From an uncultured Thermoplasmata archaeon (GTDB lineage: Archaea > Thermoplasmatota > Thermoplasmata > UBA10834): 64,000 nt of DNA. Both the position numbers and the translations under genes were made by a program. This document shows, one piece after another, positions 21,301-57,309 of this stretch. The notes beneath the pieces were generated by a model, which saw only the letters and a list, made by a program, of their open reading frames with translations, was not told the DNA's origin and did no database searches. Position 1 is the first letter of the stretch. Each line of letters begins with the position of its first letter. Location: NCBI GenBank assembly GCA_964644565.1, contig CAZXWO010000001.1, positions 57,727 to 121,726 of the forward strand, read 5' to 3'.

Positions 21301-22698
21301 TCACTCCCAGTCGTCCTTCCGGAGCGGCAGCCCCAGGTCGGACATCTTCCTCTTGTAGTCCCTCACGACCCTGAGGTACTCCTTGCACGGGCGCCTGCGC
21401 TCCGGGTCCCAGACTTCGTAGAGCGTCTTGCCCAGCGGCGGGTCCGCGAGCCTCTTCTCGTAGGACTGCACCAGCTTGAGCACCATCTGGTTGGCGTCGG
21501 CGAGGCCCATCCCCGCGACCGCGTGCCCAACCTCCGCGGATATCCTGGGCTCCACGGGCGTGGTCCTGTCCTCCTCCTTGTTCGACGCGACGCCTAGCGA
21601 CTCTATGTGCATCCCGGCCGTGACGGCCGCCGTGACGGAGGCGGTCGTCTCGTAGAGGCACATCGGCGTGCTCGGCCCCGCGGAGGTGTAGTTGAGGTTC
21701 ACGGTCAGCAGGTGGGTGTTCCTAGACACCGCCTGGCCCGTGACGCTGATCAGCCACAACAGCTCCCTGCAGCTGCTCGACACGTACCTCAGGTGCAGCG
21801 GGAACGGGAGAAGCCAGCTCGACTGGTAGGTCAGGACGCCCATCATGTGGTGGGCCACGTTGGAGACGGTGGTCCCCTCCGGCCCGCCCGCGTACCCGCC
21901 CATCATCGGGCCGAAGCACATGCCTATGGCGCCGCCAAGCCCCAGGGCCACCGTGACCTTGTTCAGCCTGGCGAAGTCGACCTTCATGGGGTCCATGCAG
22001 CAGATCATGTACCCGTCCGACTGGCGGAGGCCGTACCTGGGGTGGAGCGCCCCGGCGAGAGCGATGTCAGACTCCGCCGTGGAGAGCGTGTTCATGACGG
22101 GGATGCCCCGCCGGCCGACCCGGTTGCACGCCTCCCTGAACAGCACGGCGTTCCTCTGCGCCCCCAGGACCTCCAGGGGGGACGCGGGCCGTATCCTCAT
22201 CCCCCCGACCCTGGTGAGGGCGGGGGTGGTGATGGCGTTCGTCTCCGGGATCTCGGCGTAGCCCTCGACGAGGGTGAGGAAGGACCTGTCGCTGGAGCAG
22301 GCGCCGCCGCCCGCGCCGAGCAGGCACCAGGGCGGGGACTTGTCCCCCACGGACCGGGTCTTCATCAGCTTCCGGTCCATGCCCTCGCCGAACCACAGCT
22401 CGTTCGGGGCGAACTTGAGGGCGTTGCGCACCTCCGCCTCCGTGTACGATATCACCCTGTTAGTGTTCGTGCAGTAAGCGCCCACGTCCACGACCAGGTC
22501 GAAGGCGGCCTTGAACACGTCGTCCGCGAGCGACGGGTCGTCTGGGATGGGCGTCGATGGGTCGAACTTGATGTCGTACTCCTTCACCTTCTCCTGGACC
22601 TTGCTGGCGAAGAGCCTCAGCTGGTAGTCGGACTCGCTCATCGGCTTGCCCTCGAGGGCCTTCTGCATGACATCCAGTATCTGGACCATGTGTGTCAC
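21301..22698 (-). CDS. mtmB: Monomethylamine:corrinoid methyltransferase (MtmB) family protein, pyrrolysine-free
   Basis: Colinear with MtmB as I recall it (YCTNTNRVISYTE, RSVGDK, SPLEVL, GGYAGGPE, AGPSTPMCLYE); uninterrupted 465-aa frame with no in-frame TAG. Confidence 0.88.
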   Translation of the reverse strand: MTHMVQILDVMQKALEGKPMSESDYQLRLFASKVQEKVKEYDIKFDPSTPIPDDPSLADDVFKAAFDLVVDVGAYCTNTNRVISYTEAEVRNALKFAPNELWFGEGMDRKLMKTRSVGDKSPPWCLLGAGGGACSSDRSFLTLVEGYAEIPETNAITTPALTRVGGMRIRPASPLEVLGAQRNAVLFREACNRVGRRGIPVMNTLSTAESDIALAGALHPRYGLRQSDGYMICCMDPMKVDFARLNKVTVALGLGGAIGMCFGPMMGGYAGGPEGTTVSNVAHHMMGVLTYQSSWLLPFPLHLRYVSSSCRELLWLISVTGQAVSRNTHLLTVNLNYTSAGPSTPMCLYETTASVTAAVTAGMHIESLGVASNKEEDRTTPVEPRISAEVGHAVAGMGLADANQMVLKLVQSYEKRLADPPLGKTLYEVWDPERRRPCKEYLRVVRDYKRKMSDLGLPLRKDDWE

Positions 22699-23342
22699 CG
22701 CCCCTTGGCGAACTTGTTGGCGAGCTTCACCGCGGAGACCGCGTCCTTGCCCCAGCCGTCCGCCCCTATCTCCTTCGCCCAGTCCTGCGTGGTCGGGCCG
22801 CCCCCGACGAGGAACGCGCGCTTCCGCCTCTCCCCCGAGGCGCTCAGGTAGTCGACGATGTCCTTCTGAGAGCCTATCGTGCTGGACATCAGCGCCGACG
22901 CGCCTATGACTTTGGCGTTCCTCGACTTCGCCTCGTCCACGAACACGGAGGTCTTGACGTTCACGCCGAGGTCCACGACGCTGAACCCTCCTGCCATCAG
23001 CAGGCTCGCGACGATGTTCTTGCCGATCTCGTGCACGTCCCCCTGGACCGTGCCTATGACGACGGTCGCCTTGGAGGTCTTCTGCCCCTTCGGCACGAGT
23101 GGCAGGAGCAGGTCGAGCGCCGACTTCATAGCGTCGCCCGCGAGCATGAGTTCGGGGAGGTAGAGCTCCATCCTCTCGAACTTCTCACCGACCTGCTCGA
23201 TGGCAGGCACCAGACCCTTCTCAATGGCCTGCAAAGGGTCCACCTTGGCCTGGATGGCCGCCTTCGCAGCAGACACAGCGGCTGCGGAATCGCACTTCAG
23301 TATCGAGTCCTGCAACTGCTTCAGCACCTTGTCAGCGCTCAC
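22695..23342 (-). CDS. Methyltransferase cognate corrinoid protein (MtmC/MtbC-like)
   Basis: B12-binding GDVHEIGKNIV, YLPELMLAG, GASALM, VGGGP; GTG 23342 after AAGGAGGGA. Confidence 0.93.
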   Translation of the reverse strand: MSADKVLKQLQDSILKCDSAAAVSAAKAAIQAKVDPLQAIEKGLVPAIEQVGEKFERMELYLPELMLAGDAMKSALDLLLPLVPKGQKTSKATVVIGTVQGDVHEIGKNIVASLLMAGGFSVVDLGVNVKTSVFVDEAKSRNAKVIGASALMSSTIGSQKDIVDYLSASGERRKRAFLVGGGPTTQDWAKEIGADGWGKDAVSAVKLANKFAKGR

Positions 23343-23515
23343 AGATATCTCCCTCCTTGAGACGAATGGCCGCTCCCCACGGGCGGCGAACAGTCCCCGG
23401 AGGGGCAATGGTCTAGGCATTTAAGACGCTATTCAGGAACGCTTAAGATGCTTTGCCATGGGGCAGGGCGGGAAACTCAGAAAAGTAAATCAACGATGGA
23501 GGGATTCGATAGGCC

Positions 23516-46690: not shown

Positions 46691-47998
46691 ATGTCCTATT
46701 CCCAGATTGTCGACTGGATGTTCAACCTCGAGAGGTTCGGCATCAAGCTCGGCCTGGACAACATGAGGGAGTTCTCGAGAAGGATAGGGGACCCGCACCT
46801 CGGCTTCAGGTCCGTCCACGTCACCGGCACCAACGGGAAGGGCTCCGTGTGCACCTTCGTCTCGGAGATGCTCAGGCAGCACGGGCTCAAGGTCGGTCTG
46901 TACACCTCTCCCCACCTCGTCGATTTCAGGGAGAGGATCAGGGTCGACGGGAGGATGATCCCCCAGAGGGACGTCGTGAGGCTGGGGGAGGAGCTGCGCG
47001 TGCACATGGAGGACATGGCCGCGCAGGGCAAAGACAGGCAGCTGACGTTCTTCGAGTTCACGACCGGCCTTGCGTTCAGGTACTTCAAGGACAGGGGAGT
47101 CGACTTCGTCGTCGCGGAGGTCGGCATGGGGGGAAGGCTCGACGCGACGAACATCATCCAGCCGGACGTGGCGGCCATCACGAGGATAGGATTGGAGCAC
47201 ACGGACTACCTCGGGAAGACTATCAAGGACATCGCCTACGAGAAGGCGGGCATAATCAAGGGCGGGTGCAGGGTCGTCACCTGCGAGCGGGACCCCGAGG
47301 TCCTCAGACTGTTCGCGGACACCTGCAGGGACCGGGGCTGCGAGATGATGAGGGCTGGCGAGCATTTCGACGTCTCGAACATCGCCCAGAGCCTCTCAGG
47401 GACGCGGTTCGACTACTCTGGAGCGGCGGAGCTCACGGGCCTGCGCACGAGGCTCCTGGGCGGCTACCAGGCCGAGAACGCCGCCACCGCTATAGCCATG
47501 GTCGAGGCGCTGGCCGAGAAGGGCGTCAGCGTGACCGAGGAGGAGGTCCGGAGGGCATTGGTGAAGGCGAGGTGGCCCGGACGGCTGGACATCGTGTCCA
47601 GGCGGCCCATGCTCATGTTCGACGGAAGCCACAACCCGGACGGGGCGAGGACGACCGGAAGGACCCTGGCAGAGCTGGGGATGACGCCCATAACTTTCGT
47701 GCTGGGGTGCATGAAGGACAAGGACGCCGGCGCCATCGTCCGCGAGCTCGCCCCCCATGCCGCGATGATCGTCGTCACACAGGTCCAGAACAAGCGGGCA
47801 ATGGAGGCCGAGGCGCTCGCCGAGGTCGTGCGGAGGGAGTTCGCAGGACCGGTCGAGGTGGTCCCGGCCTCAGGTGACGCCATAGACAGGGCGCTCCTCG
47901 GACCTAGGGGCAAGGGCGTCTGCGTGATAGGCTCGCTCTATCTCGTCGGAGAGGCTATCCAGTGGGGCAGAGACAGGAGGAAAGGCCTCGATGACTGA
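46691..47998 (+). CDS. folC: Folylpolyglutamate synthase / dihydrofolate synthase
   Basis: HVTGTNGKGS, YTSPHL, EVGMGGRLDATN, WPGR, DGSHNP, GSLYLVG. Confidence 0.96.
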   Translation: MSYSQIVDWMFNLERFGIKLGLDNMREFSRRIGDPHLGFRSVHVTGTNGKGSVCTFVSEMLRQHGLKVGLYTSPHLVDFRERIRVDGRMIPQRDVVRLGEELRVHMEDMAAQGKDRQLTFFEFTTGLAFRYFKDRGVDFVVAEVGMGGRLDATNIIQPDVAAITRIGLEHTDYLGKTIKDIAYEKAGIIKGGCRVVTCERDPEVLRLFADTCRDRGCEMMRAGEHFDVSNIAQSLSGTRFDYSGAAELTGLRTRLLGGYQAENAATAIAMVEALAEKGVSVTEEEVRRALVKARWPGRLDIVSRRPMLMFDGSHNPDGARTTGRTLAELGMTPITFVLGCMKDKDAGAIVRELAPHAAMIVVTQVQNKRAMEAEALAEVVRREFAGPVEVVPASGDAIDRALLGPRGKGVCVIGSLYLVGEAIQWGRDRRKGLDD

Positions 47999-48008
47999 GC
48001 GCATAAGG

Positions 48009-48015
48009 TATAAAT
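48009..48015 (+). promoter_or_regulatory. TATA box of tRNA-Gly
   Basis: TATAAAT about 30 nt upstream of the mature tRNA 5' end. Confidence 0.6.
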
Positions 48016-48045
48016 GGCTCCTCGATATTGGAGGCGTGCCTAGAT

Positions 48046-48122
48046 GCGGCCGTAGTGTAGACTGGTTATCACTTTAGCTTGCCAAGCTAAAAACTCGGGT
48101 TCAAATCCCGACGGCCGCACCA
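48046..48122 (+). tRNA. tRNA-Gly (GCC), encoded CCA, no intron
   Basis: Acceptor GCGGCCG/CGGCCGC, anticodon arm TTAGC-TTGCCAA-GCTAA, T arm TCGGG-TTCAAAT-CCCGA, 3' ACCA. Confidence 0.98.
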
Positions 48123-48154
48123 CGGTTCTCTTGAGGAACGGCCATAGGGGCGGT

Positions 48155-48694
48155 ATGCCGCAGGAAGACCGAAATATGGAAGACACCCCTTCGACAACCG
48201 CCATGAAGGAGGAACTCGAATGCCCCAGATGCAGGGCTAGAAATGAGGCATCTGCACGTTTCTGTAGTCAGTGCGGACTAGTCTACATGCACTGTCCGAA
48301 GTGCGACACTCTGAATCCCGAGGCAGTTGAGTTCTGCATAGAATGTGGCGAGAGGATACAGTCTAGCAAGACTTCTGCCAAATATGGAGATAACGTCGAC
48401 AAGGAACCATACGTCATCTGGGAAGGGTTTCCATTTGCCTGGCTTGAGAGAAGGATGCAGACAAAGAGGCAGTTCTTCTTGTCTCTTGGGATCTACATCT
48501 TTTGTGTCTTCACGATGGTTACGGTATTCATGATCGACGTCGTGCCCGCCGCCCTGCAGGGAGATCCAGGGGCTGGTGCTGCCATATGTTGCTTGAGCTC
48601 CGCTTTTGTCGTGATTGGCTGGCTCTTCTCTATGTATTGGTGGGTCGGTAGACGGGAAGCAGAAGAGGAGCAGAAGAACAGATGGCAAGACTGA
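48155..48694 (+). CDS. Double zinc-ribbon membrane protein (cassette 1 gene)
   Basis: CPRC, CSQC, CPKC and CIEC plus two TM helices; many A/T-ending codons unlike the host; start uncertain (48131, 48155 or 48176). Confidence 0.75.
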   Translation: MPQEDRNMEDTPSTTAMKEELECPRCRARNEASARFCSQCGLVYMHCPKCDTLNPEAVEFCIECGERIQSSKTSAKYGDNVDKEPYVIWEGFPFAWLERRMQTKRQFFLSLGIYIFCVFTMVTVFMIDVVPAALQGDPGAGAAICCLSSAFVVIGWLFSMYWWVGRREAEEEQKNRWQD

Positions 48695-48775
48695 AATGAG
48701 TTCTCAGAAGGCCACAGGAGAAGAAGATGAGAAAGGGGTTTAGGTCCAGTCGATTCCCCGTCTTGATTGAAACCA

Positions 48776-48846
48776 GAAAAAGGGAGACTGGCTCGCCTTG
48801 GGTGTGAGGCCCGACGGCCGCACGTCCATTCCTCTTTGGAGAAGGC
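48776..48846 (+). repeat. att-like element A carrying a 14-bp copy of the tRNA-Gly 3' end (48810-48823)
   Basis: CCCGACGGCCGCAC is identical to 48107-48120; flanks are homologous to element B. Confidence 0.85.
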
Positions 48847-48934
48847 CGCAGGGGCATAGGACCAAGAGGGAGCCCTTTGTTGTTAGAGAAGAAGAGGCAG
48901 ATTAGCATTTAAGACCATCAAGTCGATTCAGGAA

Positions 48935-49519
48935 GTGGCACCGATGCGCAGCAAACAGGTCTTCTTGGTTGCAGGAGTTGCACTTGCCGTCGCAGGATTC
49001 ATTGTGATGGACTACTCCCATGTTCCTCTGGAACGAACAGAAACGCGCACTTTGTCATCTACGCCAGACGTCATAGACTCCACGGCAACAACGCCAGTTG
49101 GATTCTGGGTTGTGTCGAAGTTCTCCTTGTGGATTGAAGGACAGCTCTGGGGCAGTTGGAGTGCGGATATCCCTGCGGGCATAGACGAGTTTGACATCCT
49201 TTGGCTCATCATCGATCAGTCGACATACGACAACTACTGGCTGCCTGGATACTCTGAGGGTGTTCTTATGATTCACCATGGCTTCAACGATTCTGTCTCG
49301 GAGATCGGTTCTGTTCATCTCCCCACCTCAGGCAACTACTACCTCATCATTGAGAGCTTGGTCCCGATCCCTGAGCAGTTCGACGTCACAATTGACTGCG
49401 GAGTCGATGGGTTGAATCTCAGATTACTCTTACCGGGAGTCATAACCATCCTGGTGGCCGCTGCGTTGTTTATGACGGGCAGCGTCACGTCCGGAAGTCT
49501 GCCTCGGAAGAAACCATAG
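48935..49519 (+). CDS. Hypothetical membrane-anchored protein (cassette 2 gene)
   Basis: N- and C-terminal hydrophobic helices around a beta-rich domain; atypical A/T-rich codons. Confidence 0.75.
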   Translation: MAPMRSKQVFLVAGVALAVAGFIVMDYSHVPLERTETRTLSSTPDVIDSTATTPVGFWVVSKFSLWIEGQLWGSWSADIPAGIDEFDILWLIIDQSTYDNYWLPGYSEGVLMIHHGFNDSVSEIGSVHLPTSGNYYLIIESLVPIPEQFDVTIDCGVDGLNLRLLLPGVITILVAAALFMTGSVTSGSLPRKKP

Positions 49520-49601
49520 AACTGAAGAGAAGAACAAAGAGGTTGATTCCGGCGGAAGCCCCGAGTTGGCCTCAAGGACCTGACAAACTAGCTCCCCAGT
49601 A

Positions 49602-49623
49602 GTTCAAATCCCCTTCGGTCCAC
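49602..49623 (+). repeat. tRNA 3'-end-like remnant (T-loop plus acceptor strand) of a different tRNA
   Basis: GTTCAAATCCCCTTCGGTCCAC, inside the 8-bp inverted repeat CAAAGAGG (49535-42) / CCTCTTTG (49628-35). Confidence 0.5.
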
Positions 49624-49645
49624 ACTTCCTCTTTGACCGAAATCC

Positions 49646-49716
49646 GAAAGAAGGAGGCTGGCTCACGGAGGATTCTTGGCCCGACGGCCGCACGGTCTCC
49701 TCTTCTGGGAAAGGCA
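49646..49716 (+). repeat. att-like element B carrying a 14-bp copy of the tRNA-Gly 3' end (49680-49693)
   Basis: 17-bp identity with element A (GGCCCGACGGCCGCACG) plus a 16/19 match upstream at the same 870-bp offset. Confidence 0.85.
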
Positions 49717-49746
49717 GATAGGGAGAGTATGTGATACAGAGACACG

Positions 49747-50775
49747 GTGGGTGGTCTCATCAGGCCTGCAATCTCTGGATACGCAGCCATGGAAGTGGGA
49801 CAGAAGCTCGTGCAATTCAGTTATGAGCCTCCGGAATTGAAGGATCGAGAGATTCGAGTCTCCGTCACCCACTGTGGTCTCTGCTACAGTGACATCTTCG
49901 CGGTCGACGATCAATACGGCATCACCGTCTTCCCGTTCGTGCCCGGTCACGAGATTGTCGGCCACGTGTCCGAAATCGGCCCCTCGGCATCCGGACTCAA
50001 GGAAGGGGACCGGGTCGGCATTGGCTGGCAGGGCCGTTCTTGCATGAAGTGCGAATGGTGCCTCCGGGGAGACGAACACCTCTGCGAGGACGTCAAGAAG
50101 AACGGAGTCTGGATGCCCTACGGTGGCTTCTCGTCCTCGGTCACGGCAGACAGCCGCTTCGCCTACGTCCTACCCCCCTCCATGCCCTCCGAGTTCGCTG
50201 CGGTGCTCCTATGCGCAGGGATTGCCGTCTACGCCCCACTCCAATCCTGCGCGACCGGACATGGGCAGAAGGTCGGCGTCGTTGGCGTGGGCGGCCTCGG
50301 CCATCTTGCCATCCAATTCGCGCATGCGCTCGGTTTCGATGTCACCGCCATCTCGTCGTCGCCAGACAAGGAGGAACAGGCGTCCGCCTTCGGCGCGGAC
50401 CACTTCCTGCACGTACGAGACAAGAGCAGCTACAGTAAAGTGGCGTCCAGCTTCGACATGCTCCTCTTCACCGGCCACACCAGTCTCGACTGGGTTCCGC
50501 TGCAGCGCACTCTAAGGAACAACGGTAGGTTGGTCATGGTTGGCTTCTCTCCGACCCTCGTGGCGTTCGAGTCCGTGGACCTCGTGGTACACCAGCAGTC
50601 GGTGACAGGCTCCTTCATCGGCAGCCCGAAGTTGATGAAGGAGATGCTCAGATTCGCGCAGGAGCATGGCATCAAACCACAGGTCGAGCTCATGCCGATG
50701 TCGCGAGTGAACGAGGCGATCCGCAGGATCAAGGAGGGCAAGGCCCGCTACCGGATAGTGCTCGTCAACGAGTGA
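49747..50775 (+). CDS. Zinc-dependent NAD(P)H alcohol dehydrogenase / aldehyde reductase (Ahr/AdhP-like, CAD family)
   Basis: CGLCYSD, PGHEIVG, structural-Zn CMKCEWC...C, GVGGLGHLAIQFA, KARYRIVL. Confidence 0.93.
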   Translation: MGGLIRPAISGYAAMEVGQKLVQFSYEPPELKDREIRVSVTHCGLCYSDIFAVDDQYGITVFPFVPGHEIVGHVSEIGPSASGLKEGDRVGIGWQGRSCMKCEWCLRGDEHLCEDVKKNGVWMPYGGFSSSVTADSRFAYVLPPSMPSEFAAVLLCAGIAVYAPLQSCATGHGQKVGVVGVGGLGHLAIQFAHALGFDVTAISSSPDKEEQASAFGADHFLHVRDKSSYSKVASSFDMLLFTGHTSLDWVPLQRTLRNNGRLVMVGFSPTLVAFESVDLVVHQQSVTGSFIGSPKLMKEMLRFAQEHGIKPQVELMPMSRVNEAIRRIKEGKARYRIVLVNE

Positions 50776-55027: not shown

Positions 55028-56458
55028 CTAGCCGGCAGAGCGCTCGAACTGGGCTATGATGGCGTCCCCCTTCGAGACCACATCTCTGTCGATTGCGGGC
55101 ACCCTGTGCTCGGCCAGCAGCCTGCGTGCGATCTCCTTGGCCTCGGGCACCATCGCCCTCGACATCGTGGCCTCCCACTTGGCGAAGGTGGTGTCCTTGA
55201 ATATCAGCTCGGACTTGAAGTTCCTCGCCGTGTGCGGGTTCGTTATGAAGGTGTTCCCGTGGCCGACCTTCCTCACCACGTCCAGCGCGATGGTCTCCTT
55301 GCTCACGGTGTACCTCTTCATGAAGTGCCTCACGCTCTCCCACAGCGTCGACTCAATGACGGCCTGGTCGAAGGAGGCGCCCTTCACGGCGTCCAGCCCC
55401 CCGATCCCCGACACGAGGTCGGAGTTGCCCATGGTGCTGAGACAGAGGCCCATCGTCTCGGTGAAGGTGTGGGGCACGCCCGGGTCGGCGGTGTCGTTGA
55501 CGCCCCAGTCGCCGACCATTGAAGGCAGCGAGTACCTCCTAGACATCTGCCCCAGCGACGCGGCGATGAGGCACTGCTCGACGGTCATGTAGTTAATCGA
55601 ACCGGTCCTCATGTTTATGGGCGCGGACGAGGAACAGTAGACGTGCGGCGCGCCCGGAGCCGATGTCTGGGTTATGACGAGGCTGGCCAGGTTCTCCGTG
55701 TTGGCGTTGCATATCGTCCCTGCCATGGTTATCGGCGCGGAGCCGCCCGACAGGGACATCGACATGGACATCACGGGGATGCCGGCCTTGGACAGCTCGA
55801 CCATCCCCTCGACGATCCCGGTCTCGTACGCCAGCGGGGCTATCGAGCAGCAGATGACCGAGAACAGGGGGCGCTTCCTGAGCTCCTCCTTCCCGCCCGC
55901 GACCAGCGATGCCAGCTCGACCTGCGCCCTCGCGTCCTCGGCGCTCAGGATCGAGACGCCGTTCACGTGCTTCGTCGTGTTCTGCATCGCGGTCCAGAGC
56001 TCGTGGAGGCTGTGGGACGCCTGGTTGACCTCGGTCGCGGTGAGGGTGGTCCATACGAAGTCCACGCCCTTCAGCGCGTCGGCGAGCCTGATGAAGTCGG
56101 CGATGTCCTTCCTGGTGGACGGCCTCTTCTCGCCCGTGTCCATGTCCCGTATGTAGACGCCCAGACCGGTGGTCGCGGCGTACGGGGGGCCGTCGACTGG
56201 CACCGTCAGGTCGTTCCTAGGGTCGCGTGCGCACATCTTGAACGACCTTGGTGCTTTCTTCAGCGCCTCGTCGACCAGGTCCTCCGGTATCCTGGCGACC
56301 ATCTTCGTCTCGTCGACCGCCGCTCCGGCGCCCTCGAGTGTCTTGAGTATCGGACGGCTGGGTATGTGCACGCCGATCTCACGGAGGCACTCGAGGCTCT
56401 GGGAGTGCACTAGGTCCATCTCATCCCTGCTCAGGAACACGAATCTTCCGACTGCCAT
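55028..56458 (-). CDS. mttB: Trimethylamine methyltransferase (MttB) superfamily protein, pyrrolysine-free
   Basis: LREIGV, EALKKAP, GGSAPITMAG, NTENLASLV, PGAPHVY; no in-frame TAG; ATG 56458 after GGAGGGA. Confidence 0.88.
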   Translation of the reverse strand: MAVGRFVFLSRDEMDLVHSQSLECLREIGVHIPSRPILKTLEGAGAAVDETKMVARIPEDLVDEALKKAPRSFKMCARDPRNDLTVPVDGPPYAATTGLGVYIRDMDTGEKRPSTRKDIADFIRLADALKGVDFVWTTLTATEVNQASHSLHELWTAMQNTTKHVNGVSILSAEDARAQVELASLVAGGKEELRKRPLFSVICCSIAPLAYETGIVEGMVELSKAGIPVMSMSMSLSGGSAPITMAGTICNANTENLASLVITQTSAPGAPHVYCSSSAPINMRTGSINYMTVEQCLIAASLGQMSRRYSLPSMVGDWGVNDTADPGVPHTFTETMGLCLSTMGNSDLVSGIGGLDAVKGASFDQAVIESTLWESVRHFMKRYTVSKETIALDVVRKVGHGNTFITNPHTARNFKSELIFKDTTFAKWEATMSRAMVPEAKEIARRLLAEHRVPAIDRDVVSKGDAIIAQFERSAG

Positions 56459-56578
56459 GCTGCTCTTCCCTCCTGGACGGGTTCCCCACCGAAGGTCCCG
56501 ATGTCCTGAGGGGGCATGACGCAGGACGGATATCAACCTCTTTCCCGAAGGCTTAAGGAAGTTCCGGTCGGCGCGGGC

Positions 56579-57205
56579 TCACCGCTTCCTCAGGAGGACC
56601 TTGAGGACCTCCCTCTTGCCGGCCGTCGCCCCGAAGACCACGCGCCTGACGGAGCCGACCTCGGTCACTACCTCCAGCCCTGGGAACAGCGAACCGACCT
56701 CCCCCTCCAGGAAGTAGTGGGTCATGATCCCGTCGCCGCGGAGGTAGGACGAGGGCTCTACCTCCTCCCCCTTGCCGAACCTCATGTCGGCCCGCCCGAA
56801 GGCCTCGACGTAGAGGTGGCCGCCCCGGACGAGGGCCTTGGAGAGCTGCTCCGCTGCCGCCGCGCGCTCCCTCTCCACCATGTGGGAGAGGGTGTGGACG
56901 CAGGTGACTGCACCGTATTTTTCTGGTGCAAAAGGCATGTTGCGCAGGTTGCATTCTACCAATTCTACAACTCCATCAGGGTCGCGCTGGGACCTGAGGG
57001 AGTTGAGCGCCTCCCTGGAGAAGTCGCAGGCCACGACCTCGCACAGGCGCGCGAGCGCCTCCGCGGTCTTGCCGTCCCCGCACCCCGCGTCCAGGACCAG
57101 CATGCCCCTCTTCAGGTGCGGCGTCAGCAGGGAGAGGTCGCCCGTGCCGCCGTAGTGGAGGCCCCTCTTGGAGTACAACCTCTGCCAGGCCTCCCTCGCC
57201 CTCAT
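56579..57205 (-). CDS. Class I SAM-dependent methyltransferase
   Basis: VLDAGCGDGK, ACDFSREAL; start uncertain (57205-57232). Confidence 0.85.
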   Translation of the reverse strand: MRAREAWQRLYSKRGLHYGGTGDLSLLTPHLKRGMLVLDAGCGDGKTAEALARLCEVVACDFSREALNSLRSQRDPDGVVELVECNLRNMPFAPEKYGAVTCVHTLSHMVERERAAAAEQLSKALVRGGHLYVEAFGRADMRFGKGEEVEPSSYLRGDGIMTHYFLEGEVGSLFPGLEVVTEVGSVRRVVFGATAGKREVLKVLLRKR

Positions 57206-57309
57206 CGCCCTAGTAGCTGCCATCACTAGCACCGCTGCGCCTGAGGGCCATATGGATTAAAATACTAATAAAGAAGTAACTCGCCGCGTCCGAGAGAACA
57301 AGGAAGACT

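What the first reader, a model, noticed from the sequence alone, without database searches (positions are those of the whole stretch)
21301..23342. Pyrrolysine-free MtmB (Met at position 202) coupled to a corrinoid protein: unknown methyl donor
Established: methanogen MtmB uses Pyl202 (amber codon) and acidic residues Glu205, Glu229 and Glu259 for methylamine. Seen: the aligned codon is ATG (22095-22093; GIPV-M-NTL versus GMGV-O-GPE), falling at residue 202 from GTG 22698. By eye the Glu229 and Glu259 regions are replaced (DGYMICCMDP; GMCFGPM). The gene overlaps a corrinoid protein gene via GTGA. Inference: a corrinoid methyltransferase for a non-methylamine substrate. Pyl-free MttB homologues have known substrates, but I know of none assigned for Pyl-free MtmB. 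The MtmB comparison is from memory.
Basis: partly seen in the sequence, partly recalled or inferred. Interest (0 to 1): 0.65.

Follow-up and report, generated by a model that had tools for sequence, protein, structure and literature searches.

The report
Pyrrolysine-free MtmB homologue with corrinoid partner
An uncultured, non-methanogenic Thermoplasmata archaeon carries an intact relative of the methanogen monomethylamine methyltransferase that has methionine instead of pyrrolysine and sits directly behind its cobalamin-protein partner; it belongs to a known but almost uncharacterised enzyme group, and its methyl donor is still unknown.

Summary
ORF 21301-22698(-) is a full-length MtmB-family protein (Pfam 300 bits). 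Its model superposes on M. barkeri MtmB (TM 0.94). Pyl202 aligns with Met (ATG 22095-22093), and Glu205/229/259 align with Ser/Met/Cys. The real start is probably ATG 22689, which makes the Met residue 199. The gene lies 5 nt behind a DxHxxG corrinoid-protein gene (22695-23342).

The genome shows no MCR, PylS, tRNA-Pyl or MtaA/MtbA, and TAG makes up 23% of stops. It does hold 14 MttB paralogues, two RamA/AcsV-like activases, two methyl-H4F:corrinoid methyltransferases and a CODH/ACS cluster.

The most likely role is the substrate-specific first methyltransferase of an H4F-linked, Wood-Ljungdahl-coupled methylotrophy system. It probably does not use monomethylamine.

MtqB (tetramethylammonium/choline) was characterised in 2026. 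This protein is not an MtqB orthologue: it is 28-32% identical to the probable MtqB group and falls in a separate clade.

It defines an order-wide, tightly conserved subfamily with its own invariant Cys/Met/aromatic pocket (C122, M199, Y227, M228, C230, C231, M257, C258). The substrate remains unknown.

Verdict: new member of a known kind, moderate interest.

The parts
21301..22689 (-). Pyl-free MtmB-family methyltransferase gene (462 aa from ATG 22689; the alternative GTG start at 22698 gives 465 aa)
   Evidence: Pfam PF05369 300.8 bits, full length. 1L2Q E 3e-70. AF2 model TM 0.94 to 1L2Q. 121 homologues at 73-93% identity.
22093..22095 (-). ATG codon for Met199 (Met202 from the GTG start), aligned with pyrrolysine 202 of M. 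barkeri MtmB
   Evidence: Met is 99% conserved in the 121-sequence clade.
21997..22011 (-). Codons for Y227-M228-I229-C230-C231, the end of barrel strand 226-231. M228 aligns with Glu229 of MtmB. C230 and C231 are clade-specific invariants.
   Evidence: The paralogue in relative G192 has A/S at 230/231.
21916..21921 (-). Codons for M257-C258, the end of strand 254-259. C258 aligns with Glu259 of MtmB.
   Evidence: The paralogue has Asp here.
22324..22329 (-). Codons for W121-C122, clade-specific invariants at the start of strand 122-125
22695..23342 (-). Cognate corrinoid (cobalamin-binding) protein gene, 215 aa, GTG start
   Evidence: Pfam B12-binding_2 69 bits plus B12-binding 83 bits. NCBIfam MtgC, pyl_corrinoid and MtbC models all score below their cut-offs. 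DxHxxG = GDVHEIG. A 71%-identical orthologue lies directly upstream of the MtmB-like gene in G192.
23352..23357 (-). AGGAGG Shine-Dalgarno-like motif 9 nt upstream of the corrinoid gene's GTG
   Evidence: Read from the sequence.
22690..22699 (-). Gene junction: GGTGA (SD-like, contains the corrinoid gene's TGA stop) followed by a 5-nt spacer before ATG 22689. This implies tight translational coupling.
   Evidence: The same 5-7 nt spacing occurs in L013 and L012.
55028..56536 (-). One of 14 non-Pyl MttB-superfamily paralogues of the genome. It belongs to the same methylotrophy repertoire but not to this operon.
   Evidence: blastp 53% identity to the contig C8 MttB. ORF listed.

Best explanation
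The two genes encode the substrate-specific methyltransferase (MT1) and the dedicated corrinoid carrier of a three-component, cobalamin-dependent methyl-transfer system in a non-methanogenic Thermoplasmata archaeon.

The proposed steps are:
1. The MtmB-like TIM barrel binds a methyl donor in the central pocket that pyrrolysine fills in true MtmB. It passes the methyl group to Co(I) of the corrinoid protein. (Inferred from homology and gene coupling.)
2. The methyl-Co(III) protein is then demethylated by a pterin-binding methyl-H4F:corrinoid methyltransferase. It is not demethylated by an MtaA/MtbA-type CoM methyltransferase. The candidate is contig C54 6555-7445 in this genome; its 81%-identical orthologue in a closed relative lies 1.5 kb from an MttB-MttB-corrinoid operon.
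3. Methyl-H4F feeds the bacterial-type CODH/ACS (Wood-Ljungdahl) module or is oxidised.
4. A RamA/AcsV-like activase (contig C22) re-reduces inactive Co(II).

The donor is not monomethylamine activated through pyrrolysine. Pyl and the three glutamates are replaced by an invariant, clade-specific pocket: Met199, Ser203, Tyr227, Met228, Cys230, Cys231, Met257 and Cys258, with Trp121, Cys122 and Trp292.

The donor class I think most likely is an already-activated cationic 'onium' methyl compound, meaning a quaternary amine or possibly a sulfonium. Such donors need no Pyl adduct and are typically held by aromatic and sulfur side chains, as docked for MtqB.

Shown: homology, fold, residue replacements, gene coupling, conservation, and genomic presence or absence of partners. 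Inferred: direction of transfer, identity of MT2 and activase, and substrate class. My odds are about 0.75 for the general MT1/corrinoid/H4F scheme and about 0.45 for an onium substrate.
For: Family and fold:
- Membership and fold are established.
- The active-site replacements are seen in three alignments.

Conservation:
- In 121 homologues (73-93% identity) Cys122/230/231/258, Met199/232/257, Trp121/292 and Tyr227 are at least 98% invariant. These residues are rare (0-9%) at the same columns in the rest of the family.
- The gene is present in 12/12 genomes of the genus, 12/13 other genomes of the family and 3/3 of the order. It is absent from 12 other families of the class, except one Pyl-MtmB carrier.
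- The corrinoid->MtmB pair is conserved with a 5-7 nt spacer. In CP070748.1 it extends to MttB-MttB-corrinoid-MtmB.

Absences:
- No MCR. No PylS above cut-off. No tRNA-CUA. TAG is 23% of stops, against under 5% in Pyl users (PMC12180501).
- No URO-D/MtaA in G000. No MtbA homologue by tblastn in G000 or in the closed 1.70-Mb relative.

Partners present:
- Two proteins pass the NCBIfam NF005719 cut-off for methyl-H4F:corrinoid/Fe-S protein methyltransferase. One lies in the acs cluster and one lies elsewhere.
- There are two AcsV/RamA-like activases.
- CODH/ACS plus CFeSP lie on contig C12.
- All of these have orthologues in the closed relative. There the second pterin methyltransferase lies next to a methyltransferase/corrinoid operon.

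Analogy with MtqB:
- The probable MtqB group of Methanococcoides also carries Cys at the positions equivalent to 231 and 259.
- MtqB uses tetramethylammonium/choline, with sulfur and aromatic residues around the docked ligand (PMC13044021).

Specificity positions:
- The within-order paralogue differs exactly at 230/231/258 (A/S/D). This is what specificity-determining pocket positions would look like.
Against:
- The substrate class rests on analogy. The protein is only 28-32% identical to the probable MtqB group and is not its sister (AU p 0.046). The shared cysteines are therefore convergent at best.
- My identification of 'type B' as MtqB is itself inferred. It rests on a patchy 4/13 distribution, a position always behind a corrinoid gene whose best model is MtbC, and 77% identity between two species.
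- A cluster of four clade-specific cysteines could equally mark a metal or thiolate site, and quaternary-amine enzymes do not need one.
- The gene is a core gene flanked by housekeeping genes (Trm5-like, diphthine synthase). That is unusual for a niche catabolic enzyme.
- The MT2 candidate is not adjacent in this genome; contig C54 ends 15 bp beyond it.
- G000 is only 81% complete, although the closed relative gives the same picture.
Confidence: 0.6

Rival explanations
1. The clade-specific cysteines (C122, C230, C231, C258) form a metal (Zn) or thiolate site. This site would activate a neutral methyl donor whose leaving group needs a Lewis acid, such as methanol, methanethiol/dimethyl sulfide, a methoxylated aromatic or a halomethane. 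The enzyme would still be an MT1 loading the corrinoid protein, but with chemistry like MtaB or MtsA/B inside an MtmB barrel.
For: - Four invariant cysteines lie on three neighbouring barrel strands, at or next to the positions of Glu229/Glu259. They are rare elsewhere in the family.
- From established knowledge, Cys...Cys-Cys triads at strand ends of TIM barrels bind the catalytic zinc in MetH, BHMT and MtaB-type alkyl transferases.
- A non-Pyl MtmB-superfamily protein is the most induced protein on dichloromethane in strain DCMF (PMC9768040). Non-amine donors are therefore conceivable in this family.
- The genome already has 14 MttB paralogues for quaternary amines.
Against: - I had no model coordinates, so the Cys-Cys geometry is untested.
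- By strand alternation, C230 and C258 should point into the barrel but C231 should not.
- The probable MtqB group shares two of these cysteines, and MtqB works on quaternary amines with no metal reported (PMC13044021).
- There is no sequence match to any zinc methyltransferase family.
Confidence: 0.2
2. The protein works at the other end of the relay. [quoted passage not shown] Alternatively, the pair is a housekeeping methyl-corrinoid supply, for example for the archaeal core-MetE, which in vitro uses methylcobalamin rather than methyl-pterins.
For: - The gene is a core gene across the order (27 of 28 genomes).
- It is embedded among housekeeping genes in this genus.
- It has a cysteine-rich pocket.
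- A short core-MetE homologue (PF01717, 60-79 bits) is present in 14/14 relatives. From my own knowledge (Schroeder and Thauer 1999; Deobald et al. 2020, not checked here), its physiological methyl donor in archaea is unsettled.
Against: - Every characterised member of the MtmB and MttB barrels is an MT1 that loads the corrinoid.
- In CP070748.1 the gene shares an operon and a corrinoid protein with two MttB-type MT1 genes.
- A pterin-type methyltransferase alone could load a corrinoid protein from methyl-H4F.
- MetE is present, so the protein is not a replacement methionine synthase.
Confidence: 0.1
3. It is a true monomethylamine:corrinoid methyltransferase that manages without pyrrolysine, as the public annotations 'monomethylamine:corrinoid methyltransferase' imply.
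For: - The family name and the annotations point this way.
- MtqB shows a trace of monomethylamine activity (PMC13044021).
- MAG studies read the gene as mtmB (PMC11264602).
Against: - Pyl and all three nearby glutamates are replaced.
- There is no Pyl system.
- Monomethylamine is a poor methyl donor without formation of the Pyl adduct (established mechanism).
- NCBIfam has no model that accepts the protein.
Confidence: 0.05
4. It is a decaying relic of a Pyl-MtmB gene left after loss of methanogenesis, with no present function.
For: The lineage is related to Methanomassiliicoccales, which carry Pyl-MtmB. One same-class genome has two such genes.
Against: - The reading frame is intact.
- 207 of 462 positions are at least 98% invariant over 121 homologues.
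- The gene is present in nearly every genome of the order.
- Coupling to a corrinoid gene is conserved.
- The clade is not sister to Pyl-MtmB in the tree.
Confidence: 0.01

Closest known systems
MtqB/MtqC of Methanococcoides methylutens Q3c (tetramethylammonium/choline:corrinoid methyltransferase and its corrinoid protein; PMC13044021, 2026)
   Same: - Both are Pyl-free members of the MtmB family.
- In both, the gene lies directly behind its own corrinoid-protein gene.
- Both have a sulfur- and aromatic-rich pocket.
- The probable MtqB group (Methanococcoides 'type B') shares Cys at the positions equivalent to MtmB 231 and 259.
   Different: - Identity is only 28-32%.
- The two lie in separate, distant clades. 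Forcing them together costs 79 lnL units (AU p 0.046).
- The residue at the Pyl position differs (Met versus Val/Gln/Ile), and the surrounding residues differ too.
- The host is a non-methanogen without MtbA/MtqA, so the methyl acceptor must be H4F rather than coenzyme M.
- I inferred which Methanococcoides paralogue is MtqB; I did not read it from an accession.
Monomethylamine methyltransferase MtmB of Methanosarcina barkeri (PDB 1L2Q/1NTH; Pfam PF05369)
   Same: - Same family and fold (300 bits; TM 0.94, rmsd 1.4 A, 33% identity).
- Same length.
- Same partnership with a DxHxxG corrinoid protein.
   Different: - There is no UAG/pyrrolysine; Met takes its place.
- Glu205/229/259 are replaced by Ser/Met/Cys.
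- The genome has no Pyl machinery, no MtbA and no MCR.
Non-Pyl MttB-superfamily systems of anaerobic bacteria (MtgB glycine betaine, MtpB proline betaine, MtcB carnitine, MtyB gamma-butyrobetaine) with an H4F-forming MT2 and RamA-type activase
   Same: - The system logic is the same: a Pyl-free barrel MT1, a cognate corrinoid protein, a pterin-binding MT2 and an activase, all feeding the Wood-Ljungdahl pathway.
- The same genome carries 14 such MttB paralogues.
   Different: - The barrel family is different (PF06253 versus PF05369). Foldseek TM to MttB/MtgB structures is only about 0.5.
Non-Pyl MtmB-superfamily protein Ga0180325_111810 of 'Ca. Formimonas warabiya' DCMF, the most induced protein on dichloromethane (PMC9768040)
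   Same: Both are Pyl-free MtmB-family proteins in a Wood-Ljungdahl organism, with a role evidently other than monomethylamine use.
   Different: The DCMF protein is bacterial. Its sequence relation to this clade was not determined here, and its function is also unproven.

Membership tests
MtmB family (Pfam PF05369) | Full-length match to the family profile above the curated cut-off | tested here: met
   300.8 bits against a cut-off of 25, profile positions 1-450/450.
MtmB family (Pfam PF05369) | TIM-barrel fold superposable on the solved MtmB structure | tested here: met
   AF2 model pLDDT 94.7. Foldseek to 1L2Q gives TM 0.94/0.95 and rmsd 1.4 A over 452 columns.
Canonical monomethylamine methyltransferase MtmB (Pyl enzyme) | In-frame UAG decoded as pyrrolysine at position 202 | tested here: not met
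   The aligned codon is ATG and the ORF has no internal stop.
Canonical monomethylamine methyltransferase MtmB (Pyl enzyme) | Acidic residues Glu205, Glu229 and Glu259 around the pyrroline ring | tested here: not met
   These positions are Ser203, Met228 and Cys258. The catalytic role of the glutamates is recalled from memory, not verified here.
Canonical monomethylamine methyltransferase MtmB (Pyl enzyme) | Host encodes pylS/pylT (and pylBCD) and avoids TAG as a stop | tested here: not met
   No PylS hit above cut-off: best 33 bits against 178. No tRNA with a CUA anticodon. TAG is 23% of 1100 stops. pylBCD were not searched. The genome is 81% complete.
Canonical monomethylamine methyltransferase MtmB (Pyl enzyme) | Methyl passed on to coenzyme M by MtbA, with MCR present | tested here: not met
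   No URO-D family hit. No MCR alpha. No MtbA homologue by tblastn in G000 or in the closed relative.
Canonical monomethylamine methyltransferase MtmB (Pyl enzyme) | Monomethylamine-dependent methylation of the corrinoid | not testable with these tools
   This needs an enzyme assay.
MtqB (tetramethylammonium/choline methyltransferase) | Orthology to M. methylutens MtqB (same clade; other Methanococcoides strains are 78-87% identical) | tested here: not met
   28-32% identity to the probable MtqB group. The clades are separate and AU p is 0.046 against a joint clade. All seven Methanosarcinaceae non-Pyl paralogues sampled are at most 30% identical by BLAST.
MtqB (tetramethylammonium/choline methyltransferase) | Gene directly downstream of its own corrinoid-protein gene | tested here: met
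   The spacer is 5 nt. The same arrangement occurs in Methanococcoides type B loci.
MtqB (tetramethylammonium/choline methyltransferase) | Conserved Met and Cys plus aromatic residues lining the ligand pocket | tested here: inconclusive
   Cys is shared at the equivalents of MtmB 231 and 259. Other pocket residues differ. The paper's residue numbering is not given in text (PMC13044021).
MtqB (tetramethylammonium/choline methyltransferase) | Cob(I)alamin methylation with tetramethylammonium or choline | not testable with these tools
   This needs an enzyme assay.
Three-component corrinoid methyltransferase system (MT1 / corrinoid protein / MT2 + reductive activase) | Cognate corrinoid protein with a cap domain and a DxHxxG Rossmann domain next to MT1 | tested here: met
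   PF02607 plus PF02310, motif GDVHEIG. It scores below the cut-offs of all named NCBIfam corrinoid-protein models.
Three-component corrinoid methyltransferase system (MT1 / corrinoid protein / MT2 + reductive activase) | An MT2 able to unload the methyl-corrinoid | tested here: inconclusive
   A second pterin-binding methyltransferase passes NF005719 (268 bits against 259) outside the acs cluster. Its 81% orthologue lies 1.5 kb from an MttB-MttB-corrinoid operon in the closed relative. The assignment to this particular corrinoid protein is inferred.
Three-component corrinoid methyltransferase system (MT1 / corrinoid protein / MT2 + reductive activase) | ATP-dependent reductive activase (RamA/RACo type) | tested here: met
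   Two AcsV/RamA-like proteins are present, on contigs C12 and C22. They score 498-572 bits to the AcsV model (below its 800 cut-off) and 96-146 bits to the RamA model.
Zinc-thiol alkyl transferases (MetH Hcy domain, MtaA/MtbA, MtaB) | Sequence membership in one of those families | tested here: not met
   Only PF05369 is found and there is no NCBIfam hit. The resemblance is limited to a Cys / Cys-Cys / Cys pattern at strand ends.

The most novel reading that the evidence does not exclude
In this order-wide subfamily the pyrrolysine/glutamate site of the MtmB barrel has been rebuilt into a cysteine-methionine site (C122, M199, M228, C230, C231, M257, C258). The site would bind a metal or act through thiolates. 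That would give the MtmB fold a second, Pyl-independent activation chemistry for a neutral or sulfur-, oxygen- or halogen-linked methyl donor, or for a thiol acceptor. The within-order paralogue (A230/S231/D258) would then be the amine-type counterpart.
Probability: 0.15. Interest if true: 0.7.

Novelty: new member of a known kind. Interest (0 to 1): 0.4.

Why it matters
Pyl-free MtmB homologues number in the hundreds to thousands, and only one (MtqB) has a demonstrated substrate. This subfamily is present in essentially every genome of an abundant, uncultured sediment and soil Thermoplasmata order that has been proposed to live by methylotrophic acetogenesis.

Public annotation calls the gene a monomethylamine methyltransferase, which is almost certainly wrong. 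Metabolic reconstructions that credit these archaea with methylamine use therefore need correcting.

Identifying the substrate would do three things:
- It would say which methylated compound these archaea withdraw from the methanogen food web.
- It would test whether the MtmB barrel, like the MttB barrel, has diversified across onium compounds.
- It would give a second anchor point for predicting function in the family.

The candidate H4F-forming MT2 found here also fills a gap noted in the literature for these MAGs, where the second methyltransferase was reported missing (PMC11264602).

Tried and rejected
A 4-sequence alignment around M. barkeri MtmB returned only Pyl-MtmB loci of Methanosarcinaceae. 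I used these as handles to reach Methanococcoides genomes.

2. Finding the MtqB sequence:
- The paper and its supplements hold no sequence or accession.
- Cluster look-ups gave no useful names.
- I considered the Methanosarcina T3 / Methanococcoides LMO-2 type. I rejected it as MtqB because it has no adjacent corrinoid gene.
- I considered the 535-bit 'type A'. I rejected it because it occurs in nearly all Methanococcoides genomes and lacks a corrinoid neighbour.
- I settled on 'type B' as the probable MtqB. This remains an inference.

3. I tested the idea that the pair replaces a missing methionine synthase. A core-MetE homologue is present in 14/14 relatives, so I rejected that form of the idea.

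4. I tested the relic/pseudogene reading and rejected it on conservation.

5. I looked for a close link to Pyl-MtmB, prompted by short fragments starting at the Pyl position in the representative search. The fragments also carry Met or Gln at that site, so they are truncated non-Pyl relatives, not post-UAG pieces.

7. I could not measure Cys-Cys distances because the structure tool returns no coordinates.

8. I could not establish the order name. 'Ca. Public names say only Thermoplasmata/Thermoplasmatota.


Full report
THE OBSERVATION

The minus-strand ORF 21301..22698 is open for 465 codons from a GTG. It matches the Pfam MtmB profile end to end: 300.8 bits, positions 1-450 of 450. It aligns over its whole length with the solved M. 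barkeri monomethylamine methyltransferase (1L2Q/1NTH, E 3e-70).

In that alignment the pyrrolysine (X202, 'GMGVXGPE') falls on Met in 'GIPVMNTL'. The codon at 22095-22093 is ATG. Two further L-INS-i alignments, with 131 and 147 family members, give the same register. They put Ser, Met and Cys opposite Glu205, Glu229 and Glu259.

An AlphaFold2 model built on 73 sequences is confident (pLDDT 94.7, pTM 0.94). It superposes on 1L2Q with TM 0.94 and rmsd 1.4 A. The Met sits in strand 198-200. This matches the published description of Pyl202 as anchored on a strand inside the barrel (PMC9842639).

The upstream gene 22695..23342 encodes a 215-aa corrinoid protein. It has cap plus Rossmann B12 domains and a GDVHEIG (DxHxxG) motif. 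Its GTG start lies behind AGGAGG.

I make one correction. The GTGA overlap is in the DNA, but relatives are 460-462 aa and start MVQ(I/M)LDVM. ATG 22689 has GGTGA 5 nt upstream, and a 93%-identical relative has its two genes called 5 nt apart. The real protein therefore probably starts at 22689, and the Met is residue 199. I use that numbering below.

THE ORGANISM AND ITS METHYL-TRANSFER GENES

The window is part of a 1.78-Mb assembly of 94 contigs, 81% complete and about 65% GC. Public names of the closest homologues say Thermoplasmata/Thermoplasmatota archaeon.

The genome lacks the following:
- MCR alpha.
- A PylS hit above cut-off.
- A tRNA with a CUA anticodon.
- A URO-D-family MtaA/MtbA.

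TAG ends 23% of 1100 confident ORFs. Pyl users keep TAG under about 5% and non-users run at about 17-18% (PMC12180501).

The genome contains the following:
- One MtmB-family gene.
- 14 MttB-superfamily paralogues, and two MtxC-type corrinoid proteins: this one, and one on contig C8 flanked by two MttB genes.
- Two AcsV/RamA-like activases and two pterin-binding proteins, both of which pass the NCBIfam cut-off for methyl-H4F:corrinoid/Fe-S protein methyltransferase.
- On contig C12, a bacterial-type acs cluster. It comprises a 1380-aa CODH/ACS ORF, both CFeSP subunits, an activase and one of the pterin methyltransferases.

G000 is incomplete, so I rebuilt a closed relative from 85 pieces (CP070748.1, 1.698 Mb, 55.6% GC) and searched it with these proteins. 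It has orthologues of all of them and at least 20 MttB genes. It has three corrinoid proteins and two MtmB-like genes. It has no MtbA homologue.

In that genome the orthologue of the second pterin methyltransferase (81% identical) lies 1.5 kb from an MttB-MttB-corrinoid operon. Only a CorA-like gene lies between them. This makes it the best candidate for the H4F-forming MT2 that a MAG study of related archaea reported as missing (PMC11264602).

PLACE IN THE FAMILY

Homologues at 73-93% identity are very numerous in metagenomes. In a search of 1.84 billion cluster representatives, the next nearest proteins are only 40% identical or less. That search gave 908 hits at E<=0.001.

In trees of 131-147 sequences the clade has full support and a long stem of 0.52. 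It sits in a well-supported group of 30 unlabelled representatives. Where names exist for these, they come from Bathyarchaeota, Thermoleophilia, Spirochaetota and Asgard archaea. This group is far from Pyl-MtmB.

Among relatives of the genome the gene occurs in 12/12 genomes of the genus, 12/13 others of the family and 3/3 of the order. It is absent from 12 other families of the class, apart from one genome with two Pyl-MtmB genes.

The corrinoid->MtmB pair is conserved. In CP070748.1 it extends to MttB-MttB-corrinoid-MtmB.

THE POCKET

Over 121 clade members, 207 of 462 positions are at least 98% invariant. The invariant positions include Cys73, 122, 188, 230, 231 and 258, and Met199, 232, 257, 283 and 343.

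Cys73 and Cys188 also occur elsewhere in the family (69% and 14% of other sequences, both including M. barkeri MtmB). By contrast, the following residues occur in 0-9% of other family members at those columns: Trp121, Cys122, Met199, Tyr227, Met228, Cys230, Cys231, Met232, Asp233, Met257, Cys258, His280, Met283 and Trp292.

In the model, C230/C231 end strand 226-231 and M257/C258 end strand 254-259. These are the strands that carry Glu229 and Glu259 in MtmB.

A paralogue found in other genera of the family keeps W121, C122, M199, M228 and M257. At 230/231/258 it has Ala, Ser and Asp. These three positions therefore behave as specificity determinants.

COMPARISON WITH WHAT IS KNOWN

Kashyap et al. 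(PMC13044021, March 2026) showed that MtqB of Methanococcoides methylutens Q3c is a non-Pyl MtmB homologue. It methylates cob(I)alamin with tetramethylammonium and choline, with a trace of monomethylamine activity.

The paper gives no sequence, so I looked for MtqB in Methanococcoides genomes. One genome (sp. FTZ1) has two Pyl and five non-Pyl MtmB genes. Across 13 genomes of the genus, only one type ('B') fits MtqB on three counts:
- Its distribution is patchy (4/13 genomes).
- It always lies directly behind a corrinoid gene whose best model is MtbC. [quoted passage not shown]
- Two species copies are 77% identical, comparable to the 78-87% between strains that the paper reports.

Our protein is 28-32% identical to type B, and at most 30% to the other Methanosarcinaceae non-Pyl types. 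The two groups lie in distant parts of the tree. Forcing them together costs 79 log-likelihood units (AU p 0.046, marginal, and tested after seeing the tree). The protein is therefore not an MtqB orthologue.

Three of the four type B proteins and our clade share Cys at the equivalents of MtmB 231 and 259. The paper describes sulfur and aromatic residues around the docked quaternary amines. I take this as a convergent resemblance that mildly favours a cationic methyl donor.

Another non-Pyl MtmB-superfamily protein is the most induced protein on dichloromethane in strain DCMF (PMC9768040). The family may therefore reach beyond amines.

MECHANISM AND RIVALS

The best-supported reading is an MT1/corrinoid pair of an H4F-linked methylotrophy system coupled to the Wood-Ljungdahl pathway. 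This parallels the MttB-superfamily systems of acetogens and fits the methylotrophic acetogenesis proposed for Ca. Gimiplasmatales MAGs (PMC11264602). The donor is not monomethylamine.

I give about 0.75 to this general scheme and about 0.45 to an onium (quaternary amine or sulfonium) donor.

The main rival (0.2) is that the four clade-specific cysteines form a metal or thiolate site for a neutral donor. I could not test this because no model coordinates are returned.

A role at the unloading end of the relay, or as a housekeeping methyl-corrinoid supply, gets 0.1. It is suggested by the gene's core status and its housekeeping neighbours. A core-MetE homologue is present in 14/14 relatives. 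That rules out the simple idea of a replacement methionine synthase, but it leaves open whether that enzyme draws on such a corrinoid protein.

True monomethylamine use gets 0.05. A decaying relic gets 0.01. Both are unlikely for the reasons given in the rivals section.

LIMITS

- There are no expression or biochemical data.
- The identity of MtqB among the Methanococcoides paralogues is inferred.
- The order name could not be verified.
- The catalytic roles of Glu205/229/259 are recalled from the original MtmB structure papers and were not checked here.
- Earlier notes of this scan on look-alike genes in other genomes reached similar conclusions.

VERDICT

It is an uncharacterised, order-specific subfamily of a known enzyme kind. 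Its public annotation as a monomethylamine methyltransferase is probably wrong. It is a good but not exceptional target for biochemical characterisation.

Noticed in passing
window 55028-56536 (-): A 502-aa non-Pyl MttB-superfamily ORF, one of 14 paralogues in the genome (53% identical to the contig C8 copy). No corrinoid gene lies next to it; a small methyltransferase-like ORF lies downstream (56579-57232).
   Followed up: partly
genome contig C12 21822-31816 (outside the window): A bacterial-type acs cluster in an archaeon. It holds an AcsE-like pterin methyltransferase, an AcsV/RACo-like activase, both CFeSP subunits and a single 1380-aa ORF that looks like a fused CODH/ACS. It is 77% identical over its full length in the closed relative.
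   Followed up: partly
G192 (CP070748.1) 1327497-1328861 (-), read from loci L107-L191: A second MtmB-like paralogue, 65% identical to the window's protein. It keeps Met199, Trp121 and Cys122 but has Ala230, Ser231 and Asp258. Genera g2 and g4 of the family carry two copies, while the window's genus carries one.
   Followed up: partly
G192 209982-213015: A CorA-like (YGMNF motif) divalent-cation transporter gene lies between an MttB-MttB-corrinoid operon and the candidate H4F-forming MT2. CorA proteins can carry cobalt, which may be relevant to corrinoid supply.
   Followed up: no
Methanococcoides genomes G082, G013, G042, G052 (loci L095-L104): Methanococcoides sp. FTZ1 has five non-Pyl MtmB paralogues beside two Pyl ones. 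One type (about 535-545 bits to the Pfam model) occurs in nearly every genome of the genus with no adjacent corrinoid gene. Its function is unknown.
   Followed up: partly
window 47998-49747: G+C drops to 0.53 over 48-50 kb, against about 0.64 elsewhere. A tRNA lies at 48046-48119 and there is no long ORF up to 49747. This may be an integration scar or a non-coding stretch.
   Followed up: no
genome contig C12 10229-11884: A 552-aa protein has an N-terminal B12-binding domain (44 bits) that lacks the DxHxxG histidine motif (it reads GNCVHVAG). The remaining ~440 residues match no Pfam family.
   Followed up: no
genome contig C22 21745-26393: The second RamA/AcsV-like activase lies next to two tandem ~400-aa paralogues beginning MKAM(V/M)LGVGA(I/V)GSVTAEVLA (N-terminus looks Rossmann-like by eye; no domain search run). 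No methyltransferase is nearby.
   Followed up: no
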